DNA from: Candidatus Amesbacteria bacterium GW2011_GWB1_47_19
GTDB lineage: Bacteria > Patescibacteriota > Microgenomatia > CAZETR01 > Amesbacteraceae
DNA length: 64,000 nucleotides
Assembly (NCBI GenBank): GCA_001002325.1
Contig: LCNZ01000004.1
Span: 3,818-67,817, forward strand
Direction: 5' to 3'
A model generated the notes under the pieces. It saw only the letters and a program-made list of their open reading frames with translations, made no database searches and had not been told where the DNA came from. Position numbers and translations under genes: made by a program. Position 1 is the stretch's first letter, and each line of letters begins with the position of its first letter. This document shows, one piece after another, positions 4,702 to 50,016 of the stretch.

Positions 4702-6732
4702 ATGGATATCCAGCTGATTGCTCTTTTTGCCGCTCCGGCGACAGCCCTAATAGCCCTGGTCTACGGGCTTTACCTGACCAAAAACATTCTTAAACAGGGT
4801 GAAGGGGAGGGGAGACTCTTACAGATCGCCACTGCCGTCCGCGAAGGCGCCATGGCCTACCTTCGCCGCCAGTTTTCCGTTGTTTTCCCCATTATGGGCA
4901 TCCTGGCAGTAATTATCGCCCTGGTACCTTCACTGGGATTGGGAATAGCCGTCACCTTTCTGGTGGGGGCGATTTTTTCGGCTGTGATTGGTTATTTCGG
5001 CATGTGGATCGCCGTTCGGGCCAATATCCGGACCGCAAAAAATGCCGTGGTCGGTCTCAATCCCGCCTTGAAAGTCGCTTTCAGCGCCGGGACCGTCAAC
5101 GGAATGCTCCTGGTCGGCCTGGGTTTGTTGGGTGTCTCCCTCATTTATATGTGGGCTTACTTCACCTACATTTCCCAGGGGGCTGCGTCTGTAGCCAAAC
5201 ATGCCACCGATGTCCTGGTGGGTTACGGATTCGGAGCTGCACTATTGGCATTGTTCATGAGGGTTGGTGGCGGCATTTTTACCAAGGCCGCGGATGTCGG
5301 TGCCGATCTGGTCGGCAAAGTCGAAGCCGGTATCCCAGAGGACGACCCCCGCAATCCTGCCACAATAGCCGACAATGTCGGGGACAATGTGGGTGACTGC
5401 GCCGGCATGTCCGCCGATGTCTTCGAGTCGTATGCCCTTACCATTGTCGCTGCCATGATTTTGGGCGGTACCATGTTTGGCCTCAAGGGAGTGGTCTTTC
5501 CGCTTTTAGCCCGTTCCGGAGCAATATTAACCTCCATACTGGGAACTTTCTTCGTCAAGGCCAGGGATGAAAAGGAAGATGCCATTAAACCTCTGATCCG
5601 GGGTTTTGTCGTCTCTGCGGTAGCTGCCATCATAATTTTTATGGGTTTGGCGGTTTTTCTCCTGGGTGAACCCCGGGCAGGTTACGCTGCTGTCTCCGGT
5701 ATTGTTTCCATGCTTGCTCTGCTGTACGTCACCAAGTACTACACCGGTCCAGGCGAAAAACCGGTGGTGGCCATCGCCAATGCCTCCAAAACCGGTGCCG
5801 GAACCAATATCATCGCCGGTATATCAATTGGTATGGAATCCACTTTCGTCTCCACCTTAATCATTGTTGCCACGATTCTCGCCGGTTACTACTTCCTGGG
5901 CTTTTACGGCATTTCACTGGCTGGTATGGGCATGTTGGCTACCACTGGCATCATTATGGCTTTAGATACTTTCGGTCCCATCGCCGATAACGCCCAGGGG
6001 ATGGTGGAAATGGCCGGACTCAAAGGCAAGGCTCCTGCAGTTACCGCCGGATTGGATGCCGTCGGTAATACCACCAAAGCCCTGACCAAAGGTTTTGCCG
6101 TGGGTAGTGCCGCTGTCGCCGCTTCCTCACTATTTGCCACATACTTCGAAGCCACCGGATTGACCGCCATCGATATCTCCCTCCCCAAAGTTTTTATCGG
6201 CCTGCTGGTTGGTTGTTCTCTGCCGTTCTTATTTTCTTCCCGTCTCATCGGCTCGGTCGGTCGGGCGGCATTCCAGGTGGTTGAAGAAGTCCGCCGTCAA
6301 TTCCGCACTATCAAAGGCATCATGGAAGGCAAAGCCTTGCCCGATTATTCCAAAGCTGTAGACATAGTGACTTCAGCCGCCCAAAAAGAGCTGATCATAC
6401 CCGCTGCCATCGTGGTCACCATGCCTTTATTGGTCGGGTTTTTGGGAGCTCAGACCCTAGGTGGATTTTTGGGGGGAGTTGTCGCCTCCGGTCTCATGCT
6501 GGCTCTGTTTATGTGCAATACCGGCGGTGCCTGGGACAATGCCAAGAAATATATAGAGGACGGTAATCTTGGCGGCAAAGGCAGTGATGCCCATAAAGCC
6601 TCGGTGGTAGGGGATACAGTAGGGGACCCTCTCAAAGATACCGCTGGACCGGCATTAAACCCTATGATGAAAATCGTCCAGATCGTCGCTCTCCTCATCG
6701 CCCCGTTAGTCATTAAATTTTTCGGTAAATAA
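4702..6732 (+). CDS. hppA: Membrane-bound H+/Na+-translocating pyrophosphatase
   Basis: GADLVGKVEAGIPEDDPRNPATIADNVGDNVGDCAGMSADVFESY V-PPase signature. 676 aa, polytopic. Confidence 0.9.
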   Translation: MDIQLIALFAAPATALIALVYGLYLTKNILKQGEGEGRLLQIATAVREGAMAYLRRQFSVVFPIMGILAVIIALVPSLGLGIAVTFLVGAIFSAVIGYFGMWIAVRANIRTAKNAVVGLNPALKVAFSAGTVNGMLLVGLGLLGVSLIYMWAYFTYISQGAASVAKHATDVLVGYGFGAALLALFMRVGGGIFTKAADVGADLVGKVEAGIPEDDPRNPATIADNVGDNVGDCAGMSADVFESYALTIVAAMILGGTMFGLKGVVFPLLARSGAILTSILGTFFVKARDEKEDAIKPLIRGFVVSAVAAIIIFMGLAVFLLGEPRAGYAAVSGIVSMLALLYVTKYYTGPGEKPVVAIANASKTGAGTNIIAGISIGMESTFVSTLIIVATILAGYYFLGFYGISLAGMGMLATTGIIMALDTFGPIADNAQGMVEMAGLKGKAPAVTAGLDAVGNTTKALTKGFAVGSAAVAASSLFATYFEATGLTAIDISLPKVFIGLLVGCSLPFLFSSRLIGSVGRAAFQVVEEVRRQFRTIKGIMEGKALPDYSKAVDIVTSAAQKELIIPAAIVVTMPLLVGFLGAQTLGGFLGGVVASGLMLALFMCNTGGAWDNAKKYIEDGNLGGKGSDAHKASVVGDTVGDPLKDTAGPALNPMMKIVQIVALLIAPLVIKFFGK

Positions 6733-42271: not shown

Positions 42272-42475
42272 CTATTTTAATGCATCCTTGGCATTTTTGA
42301 TCCTTTTATTTAACAAAATACTAATTAGCCCAAGGGTAAAACTTTCCGGTTTCTCTTTTATTCCCCTAGTTAATTCGTCAAAATTAAACCACTTTATTTT
42401 TTCCACCTCTTCTTTTTGCAAAATAAAATCTCCGAAATATTTACTCTGAGAATATATCGTTGTGCTAGAATGCAA
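42272..42475 (-). pseudogene. Possible 3' fragment of an Idi/Nudix-type gene (67 aa)
   Basis: EEVEKIKWFNFDEL...PESFTLG resembles the C-terminus of type-1 IPP isomerase/Nudix. AT-rich. Sits at the edge of the AT-rich block. Confidence 0.3.
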
Positions 42476-42484
42476 GGTTAGTAA

Positions 42485-43402
42485 GTGGAAAAAGAGATTG
42501 TTCTTAATATTAGCAAAGATCTAAATGGTAATTCTCAACCCGGTGAAATCATTCTTAGGGGGAGAAAGATAGCTACTACACCCTTCACGCGCAGCACGAT
42601 AATTTTCGCTACAAGTGAAGCTGGTAAACCGGTTGTGATTAAGTTCCCCACTAAGAAGAGTAAGGCGGAAAGAGAATGGACTGGATTTTGTAAGGCTTAC
42701 ACAGCAGATGTGCCGACACCTATGCCCATTGCCCTGGTAACAAGCAAGGGAGGTCGCGTTGGAGTAATGCAAGAAGAGGTTGGCGGCCAGAGTCTATATA
42801 AATGTCCGGGGGGACAAGCCAGAATACGATTCGGTGAAATTGTGAAAGATATGCACCTTAAAGTGCCAACTGCGGGAATTGAATGGCAGGAAAAAGGGAA
42901 AGCAGACTATACATATTATGACAAACGCATTCAATGTTGGTCAGAAGGACAGGTTGAATTGTTATCAGCCGGCAGCACAACTCAAGCCATGCTTGGTCTA
43001 CTTTCTCCCACTATGAACAGATCTTGCAGATCTGCACCGCCAATGTTTAATCATAATGACCTATATGACAGTCAAGCGATTGTTGGAGATCAAAAAATTT
43101 ATCTTATCGACTTTGAGGAGTGGGTTGAGGAAAATCCTCTAAACGATATCGCCTATTATCTTTTTCATACTATCAGGTCAAATATGCCAGAAGTTAACTT
43201 CGGTTCATTTCTTTCCGGATATTTAGGAAATGAAGTTTTATCAGAACCAGAAAAACAAACCTTAATGTTTTACCTTTTATTTATATCTGCAAGAGCTTTA
43301 AACTATTTCCATGCATCTAAAAGCAAGTATTTCGAAATAGCGGAAAAATCCCACCGTGCTGTGACAAACTATATTGATAATGAGAACGTCTGGAAAAGCT
43401 AA
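42485..43402 (+). CDS. Phosphotransferase (APH/choline-kinase-like, protein-kinase fold) family protein
   Basis: HNDLYDSQAIV (Brenner-like HxDxxxxN variant) and YLIDFEEW (DFE/DFG-like). GTG start. Confidence 0.5.
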   Translation: MEKEIVLNISKDLNGNSQPGEIILRGRKIATTPFTRSTIIFATSEAGKPVVIKFPTKKSKAEREWTGFCKAYTADVPTPMPIALVTSKGGRVGVMQEEVGGQSLYKCPGGQARIRFGEIVKDMHLKVPTAGIEWQEKGKADYTYYDKRIQCWSEGQVELLSAGSTTQAMLGLLSPTMNRSCRSAPPMFNHNDLYDSQAIVGDQKIYLIDFEEWVEENPLNDIAYYLFHTIRSNMPEVNFGSFLSGYLGNEVLSEPEKQTLMFYLLFISARALNYFHASKSKYFEIAEKSHRAVTNYIDNENVWKS

Positions 43403-43411
43403 CAAATTTTT

Positions 43412-44059
43412 CTATTTGAGAGAATTTACAAAACCCAAGTGTGAATAATCATTTAAATACCATAGTTTCCAAACTTTAGCTTCTTCACGATATATCAATA
43501 GGGATATCCCTGTGGGCTCGATTACCAGAGATCTAAAAAATCGTCTATAGTGATCAGCCTGTGAGTTTTCTCCAAACAGGCAAGTTGATATAAACAACCT
43601 GATAAATCCCTCGTGAGAAAAAATCAGAAGATTTTTTTGAAGATAGTTGTTTATCAAGTAGTCCCTGAACTCTACTGAACGTTTTACCATCTCGGTAAAA
43701 GACTCTTCTTCCAAATCCCATTTCCAGTCCCAATTATTTCCGTTCTGCTGGGCCTCTTTTAAGTATTGCCTGGAAAGGTCTTCGTTACGCGACAGGCCAT
43801 AAACTTTTGAGGATTGGTAGCGTTCTTCTATACCATTAACCATTTCAACTTGCTTATTTAAATTTTCTGCGGCAATCCCGGCTGTCTCAACGGTTCTTAT
43901 CCAATTACTAGAAATAATTTTGTCTACTACTTTAAACCTTGGTAGCTTTCCCAACACTTCGGCTTGCTTCTTCCCTTTTTCACTTAAATGAGTCTCAGGA
44001 GATTGCCACCTTTCCCCTACATTTTCCCCCTCAGCATGTCTGACTAAAAACAGTTTCAT
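43412..44059 (-). CDS. Histidine phosphatase superfamily (phosphoglycerate-mutase-like) protein
   Basis: MKLFLVRHAEGE (RHG/RHA catalytic-His motif). Start chosen at MKLFLV. Confidence 0.65.
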   Translation of the reverse strand: MKLFLVRHAEGENVGERWQSPETHLSEKGKKQAEVLGKLPRFKVVDKIISSNWIRTVETAGIAAENLNKQVEMVNGIEERYQSSKVYGLSRNEDLSRQYLKEAQQNGNNWDWKWDLEEESFTEMVKRSVEFRDYLINNYLQKNLLIFSHEGFIRLFISTCLFGENSQADHYRRFFRSLVIEPTGISLLIYREEAKVWKLWYLNDYSHLGFVNSLK

Positions 44060-44078: not shown

Positions 44079-44849
44079 TTACTGTTTCTTGCTACCGATT
44101 GCAATCAACCCAACTATGCTTTCCGTTCTCCCATCTAGGTCCAAAATTTTATTGAACCCTTCATCTATAAACCCTCCAATTGAACAGACTCCTAAACCCA
44201 ATGCCGTGCCAATCAGATAAACGTTTTGGGCAATATGGCCATATTCTGTCATGGTGTGACGGTAACCTCTGTCTTTGTACTTCACTTCAGTCCGGTCAAA
44301 TACTGCTGTTGGTATAATAAAAAATCCTGATTCTTTCAGCCATTCTTGATTTACCTGCTTCAGAGCCTGACTTTTCATATTTTCGGAAGGAATTAACTCC
44401 AAGGAATGAGTTTTTAAATGGTAGTGATAGACTCCATTTTCCAGATTTTGAACGTTAAATATAAATAAATAAATTTCCAAGGGATATCTGGCTCCCGCTG
44501 AGGGGTACATTCGACTTTCAGATTCGGTTTTAACCAAAATTCGTTTCAATCCAACCGAATAGTAGAGAAGGTTACTTAGCTGTTTTAAGCTAACCGGCTT
44601 ACAGGAAAAATTTCTAATGGAGATTCTTGATGAAAGAGCTTGAAATAGGTCGAATCTCTTACTTGAAGGCAACGGAAGTATTATTTGGTCGAACCTGGGA
44701 TAAGCTTTGTAGTAAACCGTTTTCCACTCCTGAGGCCAAGTATTGGACGGAGTTTGCGATTCAAAGTGATTAATCATAGTATAGTTATTGAACTTCCTCG
44801 CAGGGGATAACTTTGTCAACATTTTATAGGCTTTTGAAAGCTTGGTCAT
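44079..44849 (-). CDS. SagB-type dehydrogenase (nitroreductase superfamily; TOMM-class FMN dehydrogenase)
   Basis: SSRISIRNF, RMYPSAGARYPLEIYLF, GVYHYHLKTHSLELI and KYKDRGYRHTMTEYGHIAQNVYLIGTALGLGVCSIGGF match the SagB/ThcOx-type dehydrogenase signature. Confidence 0.75.
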   Translation of the reverse strand: MTKLSKAYKMLTKLSPARKFNNYTMINHFESQTPSNTWPQEWKTVYYKAYPRFDQIILPLPSSKRFDLFQALSSRISIRNFSCKPVSLKQLSNLLYYSVGLKRILVKTESESRMYPSAGARYPLEIYLFIFNVQNLENGVYHYHLKTHSLELIPSENMKSQALKQVNQEWLKESGFFIIPTAVFDRTEVKYKDRGYRHTMTEYGHIAQNVYLIGTALGLGVCSIGGFIDEGFNKILDLDGRTESIVGLIAIGSKKQ

Positions 44850-44862
44850 AAGTTTTACAAAC

Positions 44863-45456
44863 TCATAAAAATGGGTGGGGGAAATTGTTTAATTTTCTTC
44901 TTTCGTTCTTATTAAATCCAATTTTTTGAGACACTTGGTAAAGCCTTTCGCCTCCAAGCAGTTTTCTAGCTTCATTAAGATAAAACGGCTGAGCTTTAGG
45001 AATTATTACTTTAACCACAAAATAATTCATTTTTCTAAAAACTTGGATAGTTATGTCCTTATATAGGATATCAAGTCCAAGTTTTTTAAAAATGTTAATT
45101 AAGATTTCTAACTGTTCCCCTGAAGACCGGCTACTAATACTCTTTGGAATATTAGGCGACGTCTTTTGGGAATTCAGCAAAAAGTTTAGTTTTCCAATTG
45201 CACTTCTTGAATACCACAAGAACCCACGCGTTTTAATGTCGGATCTTTTCATCAGCGTTTCGCGTGTTACTTTCCTATAATGGTTTTCGTATTCAGTTCT
45301 CAGCCAAGTTCGGGTAGTGAAGGTTTCTTCTATCGAACCTACCAATGCTGCAATGGGATCCAGGCTGCATTTCATCCCGACAGATACTGCTTTACCTATT
45401 CCCGTCCGGTTAATTACAACTGTTAAATATGTGGGAACGGGAATATCTGTGGTCAT
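44863..45456 (-). pseudogene. YcaO-domain protein, C-terminal two-thirds only (N-terminal ATP-binding part missing)
   Basis: DIPVPTYLTVVINRTG...VGMKCSLDPIAALVGSIEE resembles the YcaO central DxPVV...GxGxHxDPxxAxxxAxxE segment. DITIQVF...VVKVIIP resembles the YcaO beta-hairpin. Ends NFPHPFL (Pro-rich YcaO-type C-terminus). The ATG overlaps the stop of the kinase fragment. Confidence 0.45.
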
Positions 45457-45469
45457 CTCATAACAGTAA

Positions 45470-45888
45470 TCGGGGTTCTCAGCTGATGTGATGCCATAGC
45501 AATAAATTCCGTTTTCAGTTTATCTGCGATTTTAATTTCCGTCATGTCCTGCTCATTGCCTACAAACCCCACCAATTGACCATCTCCGACAATCGGAGCA
45601 ATTTTTTACCGCAGAGTAATATTCCTGGCCGTTTTTGCGCCGGTTCAGAATTTCTCCCGTAAATACCTTTTTCTCTGTTTTTATTGCCCGCCATAAATCA
45701 TCGTAATATCCCCTGTCCATTAAACCACCCCACAACCGGGGGGTTTTACCCAGCATTTCCTCCAGGCTGTACCCGGTAATTTTCTGTGCCGCCTCATTAG
45801 CATACAAAATCCGCCCGTCCGCATCGGTTATTATCATGTGCTCGGCCGAATTGCTGACCGCCAGCTTGAATTTTTCCAGCTCGTCCAT
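45470..45888 (-). pseudogene. PAS-domain sensor histidine kinase, frameshifted and truncated after the H-box
   Basis: The PAS ORF (ITDADGRILYANEAAQKITGYS...NGQEYY) runs into an A6 homopolymer. The -1 frame continues IAPIVGDGQLVGFVGNEQDMTEIKIADKLKTEFIAMASHQLRTPITVMR (HisKA H-box) and then stops. No HATPase domain follows. Confidence 0.6.
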
Positions 45889-45957
45889 CTGTTCCCATTA
45901 TATGAACCTTGAAAGCCGTTGTCACCCCTTTGGAGTAAAATATGACTGTTTCTGTTT

Positions 45958-48629: not shown

Positions 48630-49121
48630 CTATCTGGAAGCGTAGACCGTTGTTCCCTCCGCGCCGCAAGCTCTCACCGTCACAATCCCGTTGGTATCCA
48701 CAACCACACTATACCCGCTCATATTGGATGCTACCGTACCATCCGGATCCAGCGGCAACTCTTTTAAATACTTGGTCAAATTCCTGGCGTCGGTTGCGAG
48801 CATCAAATCCACACAGGCAGTGGCCGCGACTGCACACCCCCCTGTAGCTATGGCACATCCAGCTACCGCCGTCCCCAATTGGACTTCGGTCCCTGCTGCG
48901 GGCATTTTAGTCGGGTAATTACCCTTGTTATCGATTATCGATTGGTGAATAGCCGACAAAATCGTGTCCACATCACTCGTCCTCCGGGCGTTCTTGGTAT
49001 CTTTCAGTCTTTGTGCCGGATTAAGGGCCACGAACACCGCCACCGCCAACAGCGAAATTATTGTCACCACCAACAAAAGCTCTATCAGAGTAAAACCTCT
49101 CCTCTTATTCCCAAGCATCAC
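48630..49121 (-). CDS. Type IV major pilin (prepilin with class III signal)
   Basis: MMLGNKRRG/FTLIELLLVVTIISLLAVAV cleavage/methylation motif with Glu+5. C-terminal Cys pair. Confidence 0.85.
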   Translation of the reverse strand: MMLGNKRRGFTLIELLLVVTIISLLAVAVFVALNPAQRLKDTKNARRTSDVDTILSAIHQSIIDNKGNYPTKMPAAGTEVQLGTAVAGCAIATGGCAVAATACVDLMLATDARNLTKYLKELPLDPDGTVASNMSGYSVVVDTNGIVTVRACGAEGTTVYASR

Positions 49122-49158
49122 ATCCAGAATAGCTTTGCTCTCAACTGTTTGTCAAGTA

Positions 49159-49533
49159 CTATATCTCCTGCCAACTGGATAGCGTGATTGTCTGCCCCCT
49201 GGTAAACACCACCCGCACCTTGCGACCGAAAGCCGTCCCCGTCTCGGATACAGTTAAATCCCAATTTACCGGCCCCGGCAGGCTATAACTTACCCCACAG
49301 GTCCCCTCCGGCAGGCTGATCGTCGTCTGGTTGTAGGCAGCATCGTCATGGATTTCTTGCAGGACATCTTCCGCACACCCGTCAACCAGATACCCGTCCC
49401 CACCTCCCAATTCCACCGTCAGCGCCGCCTGCCCTTCACCGATAGCCAGCAGAGTGACTGTCGTCGTTACCGCCATTACCACCGCTGCGATAATCAATAC
49501 CGCCGATAATGCCGCAAATCCTTTATGTTTCAT
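49159..49533 (-). CDS. Minor pilin/pseudopilin-like protein (non-canonical, Ser at +5)
   Basis: MKHKGFAALSAVLIIAAVV prepilin-like N-terminus lacking Glu+5. Two Cys. Confidence 0.55.
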   Translation of the reverse strand: MKHKGFAALSAVLIIAAVVMAVTTTVTLLAIGEGQAALTVELGGGDGYLVDGCAEDVLQEIHDDAAYNQTTISLPEGTCGVSYSLPGPVNWDLTVSETGTAFGRKVRVVFTRGQTITLSSWQEI

Positions 49534-50015
49534 ATACCCCTCAATTCCGTCGTCGTCTGTAATGTCATGGTTTCCTGGAATTCCTGTCGTCCGGCTGCCG
49601 AAAAATTTGCACTCAGTGTCAGCACCACCTGCACATTCTTGGTTTTTCCGTCACCCGAAGAATAATCAGTGAAAATTAAGTCCGTTACTGTAGTGTCATC
49701 TGAATTCAACGATATTGCACCCGCACCCTGGTTGATTCGCACCCTACCGGTATTCAAATCAATCGTGGTGTCAGGGCCGGAATAATTGGTCAGTACCAGG
49801 GAATTTGCTGCCACATTGGTAATATTTTTAGCATTTCGGATTTCATATTTAATTCGCTCCAGAATATTTCTACCCGTGGCTGCCACTTCCTGATCTGTCA
49901 TACTCCTGCTTCCCCCGCCCACCACTTCCCAAGTCACGGGTAGCATCGCACTCATCACTATTCCGATAATGGCCACATACAAAATCAGTTCCACCAAGGT
50001 AAAACCTTTCTTCAT
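49530..50015 (-). CDS. Minor pilin (prepilin-type N-terminus)
   Basis: MKKG/FTLVELILYVAIIGIVMSA. Start taken at MKKGF (track ORF starts further upstream). Confidence 0.7.
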   Translation of the reverse strand: MKKGFTLVELILYVAIIGIVMSAMLPVTWEVVGGGSRSMTDQEVAATGRNILERIKYEIRNAKNITNVAANSLVLTNYSGPDTTIDLNTGRVRINQGAGAISLNSDDTTVTDLIFTDYSSGDGKTKNVQVVLTLSANFSAAGRQEFQETMTLQTTTELRGI

Positions 50016-50016
50016 A

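What the first reader, a model, noticed from the sequence alone, without database searches (positions are those of the whole stretch)
44079..45456. SagB-type dehydrogenase adjacent to an N-terminally truncated YcaO: remnant azoline-RiPP (TOMM-like) machinery
ORF 44079-44849 carries the SagB-class signatures: RSIRNF, RMYPSAGARYPLEIY, YHYHL, KYKDRGYR and QNVYL-GTALGLGVCSIGGF. The gene immediately upstream, 14 nt away on the same strand, reads like the central and C-terminal parts of a YcaO domain (DIPVPTYL...VGMKCSLDPIAALVGSIEE; C-terminus NFPHPFL). It is only 197 aa and lacks the N-terminal ATP-binding ExxER region. A YcaO plus SagB-dehydrogenase pairing is the established core of thiazole/oxazole-forming RiPP clusters. 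Here there is no E1-like/Ocin-ThiF partner, no obvious Cys/Ser/Thr-rich precursor ORF, and the YcaO is cut. The cluster is therefore probably decayed, or its other parts lie outside the block. Either would be unusual for this kind of small genome.
Basis: partly seen in the sequence, partly recalled or inferred. Interest (0 to 1): 0.72.

Follow-up and report, generated by a model that had tools for sequence, protein, structure and literature searches.

The report
Broken remnant of an azole-peptide cassette
A small groundwater bacterium (Candidatus Amesbacteria) carries a horizontally acquired copy of a peptide-antibiotic-type gene cassette whose front end is missing: the peptide gene and the catalytic half of the key enzyme are gone, so it is a genomic scar and not a working pathway.

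Summary
ORF 44079-44849(-) is a genuine SagB-family dehydrogenase. ORF 44863-45456(-) is the C-terminal 197 residues of a TOMM/SagD-type YcaO, by HMM, by 68% identity to a full-length relative, and by fold.

Eight other Patescibacteria species carry a compact cassette with unrelated flanks: a Cys/Ser-rich precursor, YcaO (435-464 aa), SagB, a histidine-phosphatase-family protein, and an APH-like kinase on the opposite strand. None has an E1/ThiF partner.

The window keeps only the 3' 3.2 kb of this cassette. This remnant has 38.7% GC against 48.4% for the rest of the window. The YcaO remnant is fused within about 14 nt to a frameshifted, truncated PAS histidine-kinase gene.

The precursor gene and both nearly invariant YcaO E-x-x-E-R motifs are missing. 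Neither is found anywhere in the 64 kb. Every independently assembled contig examined has the same junction, so it is not an assembly chimera.

The remaining genes keep intact reading frames and conserved residues and show no accelerated evolution, so the truncation looks recent.

[quoted passage not shown] This is a decayed member of a known kind. The kinase/phosphatase pair is the only mildly new element.

The parts
45897..45925 (-). Best promoter-like site (GTGACA-17-TATAAT, 11 of 12) just upstream of the PAS ORF. It could drive read-through into the remnant genes. This is inferred only.
   Evidence: sequence
45553..45888 (-). PAS-domain ORF: the 5' part of a native histidine-kinase gene, now a pseudogene. 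The frame is lost in the A6 run at 45602-45607.
   Evidence: Pfam PAS E 8e-13. Three-frame translation. Homologue P0273 shows that the PAS domain continues across the frameshift.
45453..45575 (-). Out-of-frame continuation of the kinase, ending 7 residues after the H-box (…ASHQLRTPITVMR*). Its TGA stop overlaps the ATG of the YcaO stump (ATGA).
   Evidence: HisKA profile positions 2-21 of 66; PnpS/PhoR/WalK hits
45456..45470 (.). Recombination junction. Kinase homology runs to 45456. YcaO homology (YCYEMTTD against YSFDLTTD in L012) starts at about 45469. About 14 nt could be read either way, so microhomology is possible.
44863..45456 (-). C-terminal 197 aa of a SagD-type YcaO. It corresponds to residues ~251-447 of the L012 homologue. 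It lacks both E-x-x-E-R motifs and keeps the C-terminal FPHPFL.
44079..44849 (-). SagB-family FMN dehydrogenase, 256 aa. The reading frame is intact and all 40 invariant family positions are present.
43412..44059 (-). Histidine-phosphatase-superfamily protein, 215 aa from the ATG. The RHA and SHE catalytic motifs are present. It is a conserved member of the cassette.
42485..43402 (+). APH-like kinase, 305 aa, on the opposite strand. It is a conserved member of the cassette. The FNHND and IDF motifs are kept, but it has H194Y and G196S in a loop that is otherwise invariant.
42272..42475 (-). AT-rich (30.5% GC) 67-aa ORF with weak similarity to Nudix C-termini. It is probably another gene fragment at the far edge of the foreign DNA. 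It abuts the AGGAGG ribosome-binding site of ychF.
   Evidence: NCBIfam E 0.0067 and 0.016 only. No Pfam hit. GC. Sequence.

Best explanation
Window 42.27-45.47 kb is a 3.2-kb piece of foreign, lower-GC Patescibacterial DNA. It holds the 3' portion of a self-contained five-gene linear azole-peptide (LAP/TOMM) cassette.

In the intact cassette, the YcaO would ATP-dependently cyclodehydrate Cys/Ser residues of the small precursor to azolines. SagB would oxidise them to azoles. This is inferred from established knowledge of the families. The roles of the kinase and phosphatase are unknown.

In this genome an illegitimate recombination or deletion removed the precursor gene and roughly the first 250 codons of ycaO. 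It joined the stump to a native PAS histidine-kinase gene cut just after its H-box. That kinase gene also carries a frameshift.

The 197-aa YcaO stump lacks both E-x-x-E-R motifs, and the locus has no substrate, so it cannot make azolines. SagB, the phosphatase and the kinase are still intact ORFs, most simply because the event is recent. Shown here: the homology, the truncation point, the junction, the GC step, the fixation in the population, and the conserved cassette in relatives. Inferred: the enzyme chemistry, the direction of transfer, the inactivity, and the recency.
For: HMM and fold identity of the two ORFs.

Full-length relatives pass the TIGR03604 cutoff, at 269 and 259 bits against 219.

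The precursor-YcaO-SagB-HisPhos-APH module is conserved in 8 species loci with unrelated flanks.

The precursors are 65-78 aa with Cys/Ser-rich cores and lie directly upstream of ycaO.

The window has no precursor-like ORF and no YcaO N-half.

Of 594 library representatives with E<1e-30, the 150 best are listed. Nearly all are 400-460 aa, and this 197-aa protein is the only one whose match begins at its first residue in mid-profile (position 100 of 297).

Both E-x-x-E-R motifs lie in the missing part.

The junction with the HisKA H-box is resolved to within about 14 nt.

GC is 0.387 in the remnant against 0.484 in the rest of the window. The intact cassettes sit in 30-40% GC contexts.

The identical junction is present in all 23 and 24 contigs read in two look-ups, from ENA, JGI, NCBI and Logan assemblies of several samples.

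The window lineage shows no rate acceleration relative to L012 in any of the four genes.
Against: No island-free close relative was found, so the ancestral kinase…ychF locus and the order of events (truncated on arrival, or deleted later) are not established.

Only 64 kb of the genome was seen, so an intact second cassette elsewhere cannot be excluded.

The intact frames and conserved residues of SagB, HisPhos and APH are equally compatible with retained function.

The low GC of the remnant is indirect evidence for transfer.

Inactivity of the stump is inferred from the missing motifs and was not tested.
Confidence: 0.8

Rival explanations
1. The remnant is partly functional. SagB, the phosphatase and/or the kinase are retained under selection for another role. 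Examples would be immunity or detoxification against azole peptides made by neighbours, or tailoring in trans for an intact cluster elsewhere in the genome. Transcription would come from the old kinase promoter.
For: All three ORFs are intact over 2.4 kb, with catalytic motifs and every family-invariant residue present. There is no rate acceleration. A near-consensus promoter lies upstream of the PAS ORF on the same strand. The arrangement is fixed in the population.
Against: In the 80 genome loci examined, HisPhos and APH never flank SagB without a full-length YcaO. The kinase has two substitutions (H194Y, G196S) in a loop invariant in the nine other cassette sequences. No Shine-Dalgarno-like sequence precedes any remnant gene. 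The population is clonal, so selection cannot be measured. A recent event explains the intactness equally well.
Confidence: 0.15
2. This is a naturally split YcaO. The N-terminal half is encoded elsewhere and the two halves reassemble into an active cyclodehydratase.
For: The stump has its own ATG and is predicted with high confidence (pLDDT 87) to adopt the native C-terminal YcaO fold.
Against: No N-half exists in the 64 kb. The listed relatives are nearly all single chains of 400-460 aa. The one apparent split, in L056, is an N-run artefact. The break coincides with a truncated, frameshifted kinase gene and a GC step, which are the marks of a recombination scar. The precursor is also missing.
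Confidence: 0.03
3. This is an assembly chimera or mis-join between two organisms of different GC content.
For: There is a sharp GC change at a junction between two gene fragments.
Against: The identical junction appears in all 23 and 24 contigs read in two look-ups. They come from independent assemblies and assemblers (ENA, JGI, NCBI UBA, Logan) and several samples, at 99.5-100% identity over up to 20 kb on both sides. The far end of the insert is also contiguous with ychF-rpsF-ssb-rpsR.
Confidence: 0.02

Closest known systems
CPR/Patescibacteria linear azole(ine)-containing peptide (LAP) clusters (Sharrar et al. 2020, mBio, PMC7298704)
   Same: A YcaO next to a nitroreductase-type (SagB) dehydrogenase, with a Ser/Cys-rich precursor beside the YcaO, in Microgenomates and Parcubacteria. 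The relatives of this locus (L012, L015, L017 and others) fit that description.
   Different: The window copy lacks the precursor and the catalytic half of the YcaO. The subfamily here carries a histidine-phosphatase-family gene and an APH-like kinase instead of the peptidase shown in that paper's example. No paper mentioning this pair was found.
Microcin B17 synthetase McbBCD and streptolysin S SagBCD (classical TOMM systems)
   Same: The SagB/McbC-type FMN dehydrogenase matches McbC 6gos at E 2e-14. The SagD/McbD-type YcaO fold matches 6gri_D. The intact relatives have a Cys/Ser/Gly-rich core peptide.
   Different: No E1-like SagC/McbB partner is present, either here or in the intact relatives. 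There are no export or immunity genes. The YcaO here is truncated.
Cyanobactin heterocyclases LynD, TruD and MusD, and the oxidase CyaGox
   Same: These are the best solved sequence and structure matches. For the YcaO part: 4v1t, 4bs9 and 7u58, with TMq 0.55-0.62 for the stump and E 8e-18 for full-length L012. For SagB: 5lq4 and 8pz5, E 7e-19.
   Different: The cyanobactin enzymes are ~750-780 aa fusions with an N-terminal E1-like/RRE domain. The cassette YcaOs are 435-464 aa with only a ~70-residue N-terminal extension. Sequence identity is about 20%.
Class V lanthipeptide kinase LxmK (an APH-fold RiPP kinase)
   Same: The cassette kinase belongs to the APH fold (Pfam PF01636, E 6.7e-7) and gives a faint hit to NF038156 LxmK (E 0.029). 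Its core peptide is Ser-rich.
   Different: The hit is far below the cutoff (13.5 against 315 bits). No HopA1-type lyase or cyclase is present. A role in Ser phosphorylation is only a lead.

Membership tests
SagB/ThcOx-type azoline dehydrogenase (TIGR03605) | Score above the curated cutoff of the family HMM | tested here: met
   158.5 bits against a cutoff of 78.4, E 1.1e-46
SagB/ThcOx-type azoline dehydrogenase (TIGR03605) | Closer to characterised azoline oxidases than to generic nitroreductases | tested here: met
   CyaGox and 8pz5 at E 7e-19 and McbC at 2e-14, against generic nitroreductases at 1e-5 or weaker. The oxygen-insensitive NADPH nitroreductase family scores E 0.1.
SagB/ThcOx-type azoline dehydrogenase (TIGR03605) | Conserved Lys-Tyr active-site pair (described for BcerB; from my own knowledge of the family) | tested here: met
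   K190 and Y191 are invariant in the 36-sequence alignment, which includes the window protein
TOMM cyclodehydratase, SagD/YcaO family (TIGR03604 / PF02624) | Homology to the family over the whole domain, above the cutoff | tested here: not met
   Only model positions 181-376 of 377 are present, scoring 126.9 bits against a cutoff of 219. Full-length relatives L012 and L015 pass at 269 and 259 bits.
TOMM cyclodehydratase, SagD/YcaO family (TIGR03604 / PF02624) | ATP/Mg-binding E-x-x-E-R motifs (assigned as ATP/Mg ligands from my own knowledge of the E. coli YcaO and LynD structures) | tested here: not met
   Both motifs (A3 columns 126-130 and 253-258; L012 EAIERY at residues 86-91 and EIIERD within residues ~208-218) lie upstream of the truncation at about residue 251
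TOMM cyclodehydratase, SagD/YcaO family (TIGR03604 / PF02624) | Proline-rich C-terminal motif of azoline-forming YcaOs (PxPxP) | tested here: inconclusive
   The C-terminus is …NNFPHPFL, that is P-x-P-x-L. The same variant occurs in the intact relatives of this subclade. More distant relatives end in PHPFP.
TOMM cyclodehydratase, SagD/YcaO family (TIGR03604 / PF02624) | YcaO fold | tested here: met
   For the C-terminal half only: the top 38 Foldseek PDB hits are all YcaO structures, TMq 0.55-0.62
Functional LAP/TOMM biosynthetic gene cluster | Precursor peptide gene with a Cys/Ser/Thr-rich core next to the enzymes | tested here: not met
   No such ORF in 64 kb, and no similarity to the six relatives' precursors beyond chance. 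It is present in all eight intact relatives.
Functional LAP/TOMM biosynthetic gene cluster | E1-like (SagC/McbB) or Ocin-ThiF-like partner for the YcaO | tested here: not met
   Absent from the window. No conserved additional family lies within ±6-8 kb of the eight intact cassettes. This may therefore be a partner-independent subfamily.
Functional LAP/TOMM biosynthetic gene cluster | Production of an azole-modified peptide | not testable with these tools
   Needs expression and mass spectrometry

The most novel reading that the evidence does not exclude
Two things could be novel.

First, the parent cassette (precursor-YcaO-SagB-histidine phosphatase-APH kinase, with no E1/ThiF partner) may be an undescribed LAP subclass in Patescibacteria. 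Phosphorylation and dephosphorylation could be part of maturation or of producer self-protection.

Second, in this Amesbacterium the surviving SagB/phosphatase/kinase genes may be kept as an orphan resistance or tailoring module after loss of production, a 'cheater' genotype.
Probability: 0.15. Interest if true: 0.55.

Novelty: new member of a known kind. Interest (0 to 1): 0.3.

Why it matters
As a biosynthetic locus it does not matter much. It is a dead copy of a cluster type already catalogued in CPR bacteria. It has three modest uses.

1. It is a cleanly resolved example of gene-fragment acquisition or decay by illegitimate recombination in an ultra-small, streamlined genome. The junction is defined to about 14 nt.

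2. It warns annotation and BGC-mining pipelines that a YcaO Pfam hit next to a SagB hit does not imply a working cluster.

3. Tracing it exposed a compact five-gene cassette with a conserved kinase/phosphatase pair and a conserved Cys-rich precursor family. That cassette would be a tractable target for heterologous expression.

Tried and rejected
1. Reconstructing the ancestral locus failed.
- The repaired PAS+HisKA sequence found only three short hits and no full-length orthologue.
- A ychF-anchored scan of metagenome contigs was swamped by the universal NYPFATIE motif. The best relatives were 62-65% identical with different neighbours.
- An exact-match look-up of ribosomal protein S18 returned only the same genome.

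2. Population genetics (pN/pS) was not possible. Ten loci are 99.5-100% identical to the window, and most differences are N-runs or scaffold gaps.

3. A candidate second 'split YcaO', in L056, turned out to be an N-run inside the gene.

4. The closest word-search hit, P0002 (297 aa), looked N-terminally short. Its contig starts with an Illumina adapter tail and the ORF is open to the contig end, so it is not a second truncation.

5. A phage origin found no support. There is no SagB relative in IMG/VR.

6. No direct repeats or shared microhomology of 6 nt or more were found between the two ends of the insert.

7. PDB sequence searches for the kinase and the phosphatase gave nothing.

8. Those lie further upstream in the missing part.

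Full report
**What is at the coordinates**

The two minus-strand ORFs exist as described.

ORF 44079-44849 (256 aa) scores 158.5 bits on TIGR03605, the SagB family peptide dehydrogenase model, against a curated cutoff of 78.4. Pfam places it in Nitroreductase at E 5e-26. Its nearest solved relatives are azoline oxidases: CyaGox 5lq4, a SagB-type dehydrogenase 8pz5, and McbC 6gos. Generic nitroreductases are many orders of magnitude weaker.

ORF 44863-45456 (197 aa) aligns to positions 181-376 of the 377-position TIGR03604 model (TOMM cyclodehydratase, SagD family) with E 8.6e-37. It aligns to positions 182-324 of 325 in Pfam YcaO. An AlphaFold2 model built on a 50-sequence alignment has mean pLDDT 87. 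All of its 38 best Foldseek matches in the PDB are YcaO enzymes: LynD, MusD, TruD, M. jannaschii and M. kandleri YcaO, E. coli YcaO and McbD.

The protein is identical to 'hypothetical protein A2379_05450' of Candidatus Amesbacteria bacterium RIFOXYB1_FULL_47_13.

**What the neighbourhood shows**

Upstream on the same strand lies a PAS-domain ORF (45553-45888). It is followed, in another frame, by 40 codons ending in the HisKA H-box (…ASHQLRTPITVMR*).

The frame is lost in an A6 run at 45602-45607. A homologue, P0273, shows that the PAS domain originally continued across this point.

The TGA of this kinase fragment overlaps the ATG of the YcaO stump. Kinase homology reaches 45456. DNA and protein homology to a full-length YcaO (L012: YSFDLTTDI against YCYEMTTDI in the window) begins at about 45469. 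The two gene fragments are therefore joined within about 14 nt.

Downstream of SagB are three further features:
- a histidine-phosphatase-superfamily gene (43412-44059);
- an APH-like kinase on the opposite strand (42485-43402);
- a 30% GC ORF with only weak Nudix C-terminal similarity (42272-42475), which abuts the AGGAGG ribosome-binding site of ychF.

The segment 42485-45456 is 38.7% GC against 48.4% for the rest of the window. The kinase fragment (46%) and ychF (48%) are host-like.

**What the relatives show**

SagB homologues of about 256 aa are abundant: 1338 hits, many labelled Patescibacteria or Woesebacteria.

Genome contexts of the closest ones reveal one invariant module:
- a 65-78 aa ORF with a leader motif R(D/E)L.DA.P and a Cys/Ser-rich core (for example …SCGSCNSCACGDNSCGSCSSCADCGCNC);
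- YcaO of 435-464 aa;
- SagB;
- His_Phos_1;
- an APH-like kinase on the opposite strand.

It occurs in eight species-level loci (L012, L015, L017, L018, L020, L021, L022, L024) and partly in L014. Their flanks share no other gene family. The module is therefore self-contained and has been inserted in different places. None of them has an E1-like or ThiF-like partner nearby.

The full-length YcaOs pass the TIGR03604 cutoff at 269 and 259 bits. These cassettes have 30-40% GC, like their flanks.

More distant YcaO-SagB pairs (SagB below about 48% identity) are widespread in Patescibacteria and in archaeal MAGs, but they lack the phosphatase/kinase pair.

**What is missing here**

Aligned to L012, the window's YcaO begins at about residue 251 of 447.

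A 50-sequence family alignment and the alignment to TruD and MusD place both nearly invariant E-x-x-E-R motifs upstream of that point. In L012 these are EAIERY at residues 86-91 and EIIERD within residues ~208-218. From my own knowledge of the E. coli YcaO and LynD structures, these motifs provide the ATP/Mg ligands.

Neither a YcaO N-half nor any precursor-like or Cys-rich small ORF occurs anywhere in the 64 kb.

An exhaustive HMM search of 1.84 billion representatives found 594 relatives below E 1e-30. Of the 150 best that are listed, nearly all are 400-460 aa. The window protein is the only one whose match begins at its first residue in mid-profile (position 100 of 297). One apparent split, in L056, is an N-run. 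The short hit P0002 is cut by a contig end that begins with adapter sequence.

**Is it real?**

The same kinase'-YcaO'-SagB-HisPhos-APH-ychF arrangement is present in every contig read. That is 23 contigs in one look-up and 24 in another, from ENA, JGI, NCBI and Logan assemblies of several samples. Identity is 99.5-100% over up to 20 kb. An assembly chimera is excluded for practical purposes.

**State of the surviving genes**

SagB keeps all 40 positions that are invariant in a 36-sequence family alignment, including the K190-Y191 pair. The phosphatase keeps its RHA and SHE motifs. The kinase keeps FNHND and IDF, but has H194Y and G196S in a loop that is invariant in the other nine cassette sequences.

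Relative-rate counts against seven outgroups show no acceleration on the window lineage compared with the intact L012 cassette, for any of the four genes. For the YcaO C-half the counts are 10-14 window-unique changes against 10-15 L012-unique changes.

The population is clonal, so selection cannot be measured directly.

The simplest reading is a recent truncation. Retained function of the three intact genes cannot be excluded. A near-consensus promoter upstream of the PAS ORF could transcribe them, although none has a recognisable Shine-Dalgarno sequence.

**Mechanism**

In the intact cassette the YcaO would phosphorylate backbone amides to cyclise Cys/Ser to azolines, and SagB would oxidise them to azoles. 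This is established chemistry of the two families, applied here by homology. The kinase and phosphatase have no assigned role. A faint LxmK-like hit (E 0.029) is only a lead.

In this genome the locus has no substrate gene and no catalytic YcaO half, so it should be inert for azoline formation.

How it arose is inferred. One route is that a fragment of lower-GC donor DNA, cut inside ycaO and inside a Nudix-like gene, replaced the 3' part of the kinase gene and whatever lay before ychF. The other is that a whole cassette was integrated and a later deletion removed the kinase 3' end, the precursor and the ycaO 5' half. I could not recover an island-free relative to decide between them. No phage link was found.

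**Comparison with what is known**

LAP clusters made of a YcaO, an adjacent nitroreductase-type gene and a Ser/Cys-rich precursor were reported for CPR bacteria in 2020. That study found 110 clusters in 93 genomes, 89 of them with the nitroreductase next to the YcaO (PMC7298704). Presence of such genes in a small genome is therefore not unusual.

The window locus is a decayed member of that known kind. It fails the membership tests for a functional cluster (no precursor, no ATP-binding half) and passes those for SagB.

I found no paper describing the phosphatase/kinase accessory pair. The library searched is limited, so this is a lead and not a claim of novelty.

**Verdict**

This is an ordinary genomic scar of a known cluster type. 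Interest is 0.3. The most novel reading not excluded is an orphan resistance or tailoring module, or a new phospho-dependent LAP subclass. I give that about 0.15 probability.

Noticed in passing
L012 4090-6148: Directly upstream of the intact LAP cassette lie a 54-aa ORF, an 89-aa ORF and a 540-aa asparagine-synthase-like protein. The last has a weak hit to lasso-peptide cyclase (NF033535, E 1.5e-5). This may be a second RiPP system adjacent to the first.
   Followed up: partly
L015 3355-4431: A phage-type integrase gene lies 2 kb upstream of the intact cassette in an 810-kb Patescibacteria chromosome. This fits the cassette sitting on a mobile island.
   Followed up: no
L001 1-20 and 937-1709: The contig begins with the tail of an Illumina adapter (ACACGACGCTCTTCCGATCT). 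Its SagB gene is split into two ORFs by a frameshift.
   Followed up: partly
L015 / L016 / L023: The same 810,692-bp sequence is deposited as 'uncultured Gammaproteobacteria bacterium' (OZ246419.1) and as 'Patescibacteria group bacterium' (DASZQR010000010.1). Many 'uncultured Gammaproteobacteria' titles among the SagB loci are probably mislabelled.
   Followed up: no
window 42485-43402: The APH-like kinase is as distant from the L012 and L014 kinases (p-distance 0.58-0.60) as from the outgroups. YcaO, SagB and the phosphatase group clearly with L012 and L014 (0.30-0.41). The kinase either evolves faster or the cassette is mosaic.
   Followed up: partly
window 45888-45925: The ATG of the PAS ORF lies only 9 nt after a near-consensus -10 box (GTGACA-17-TATAAT), which suggests a leaderless or near-leaderless transcript.
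   Followed up: no
window 48630-54902: A set of T2SSE/T2SSF and N-methyl pilin-like genes (type IV pilus-like) lies a few kb from the insert. Coordinates were mapped from the Pfam calls on L002.
   Followed up: no
L056 4103-5649: A Saccharibacteria-labelled YcaO appears split at almost the same residue as the window truncation. The break is a run of N in the scaffold. A Gly/Ser/Cys-rich 120-aa ORF follows the YcaO at 5655-6017.
   Followed up: yes
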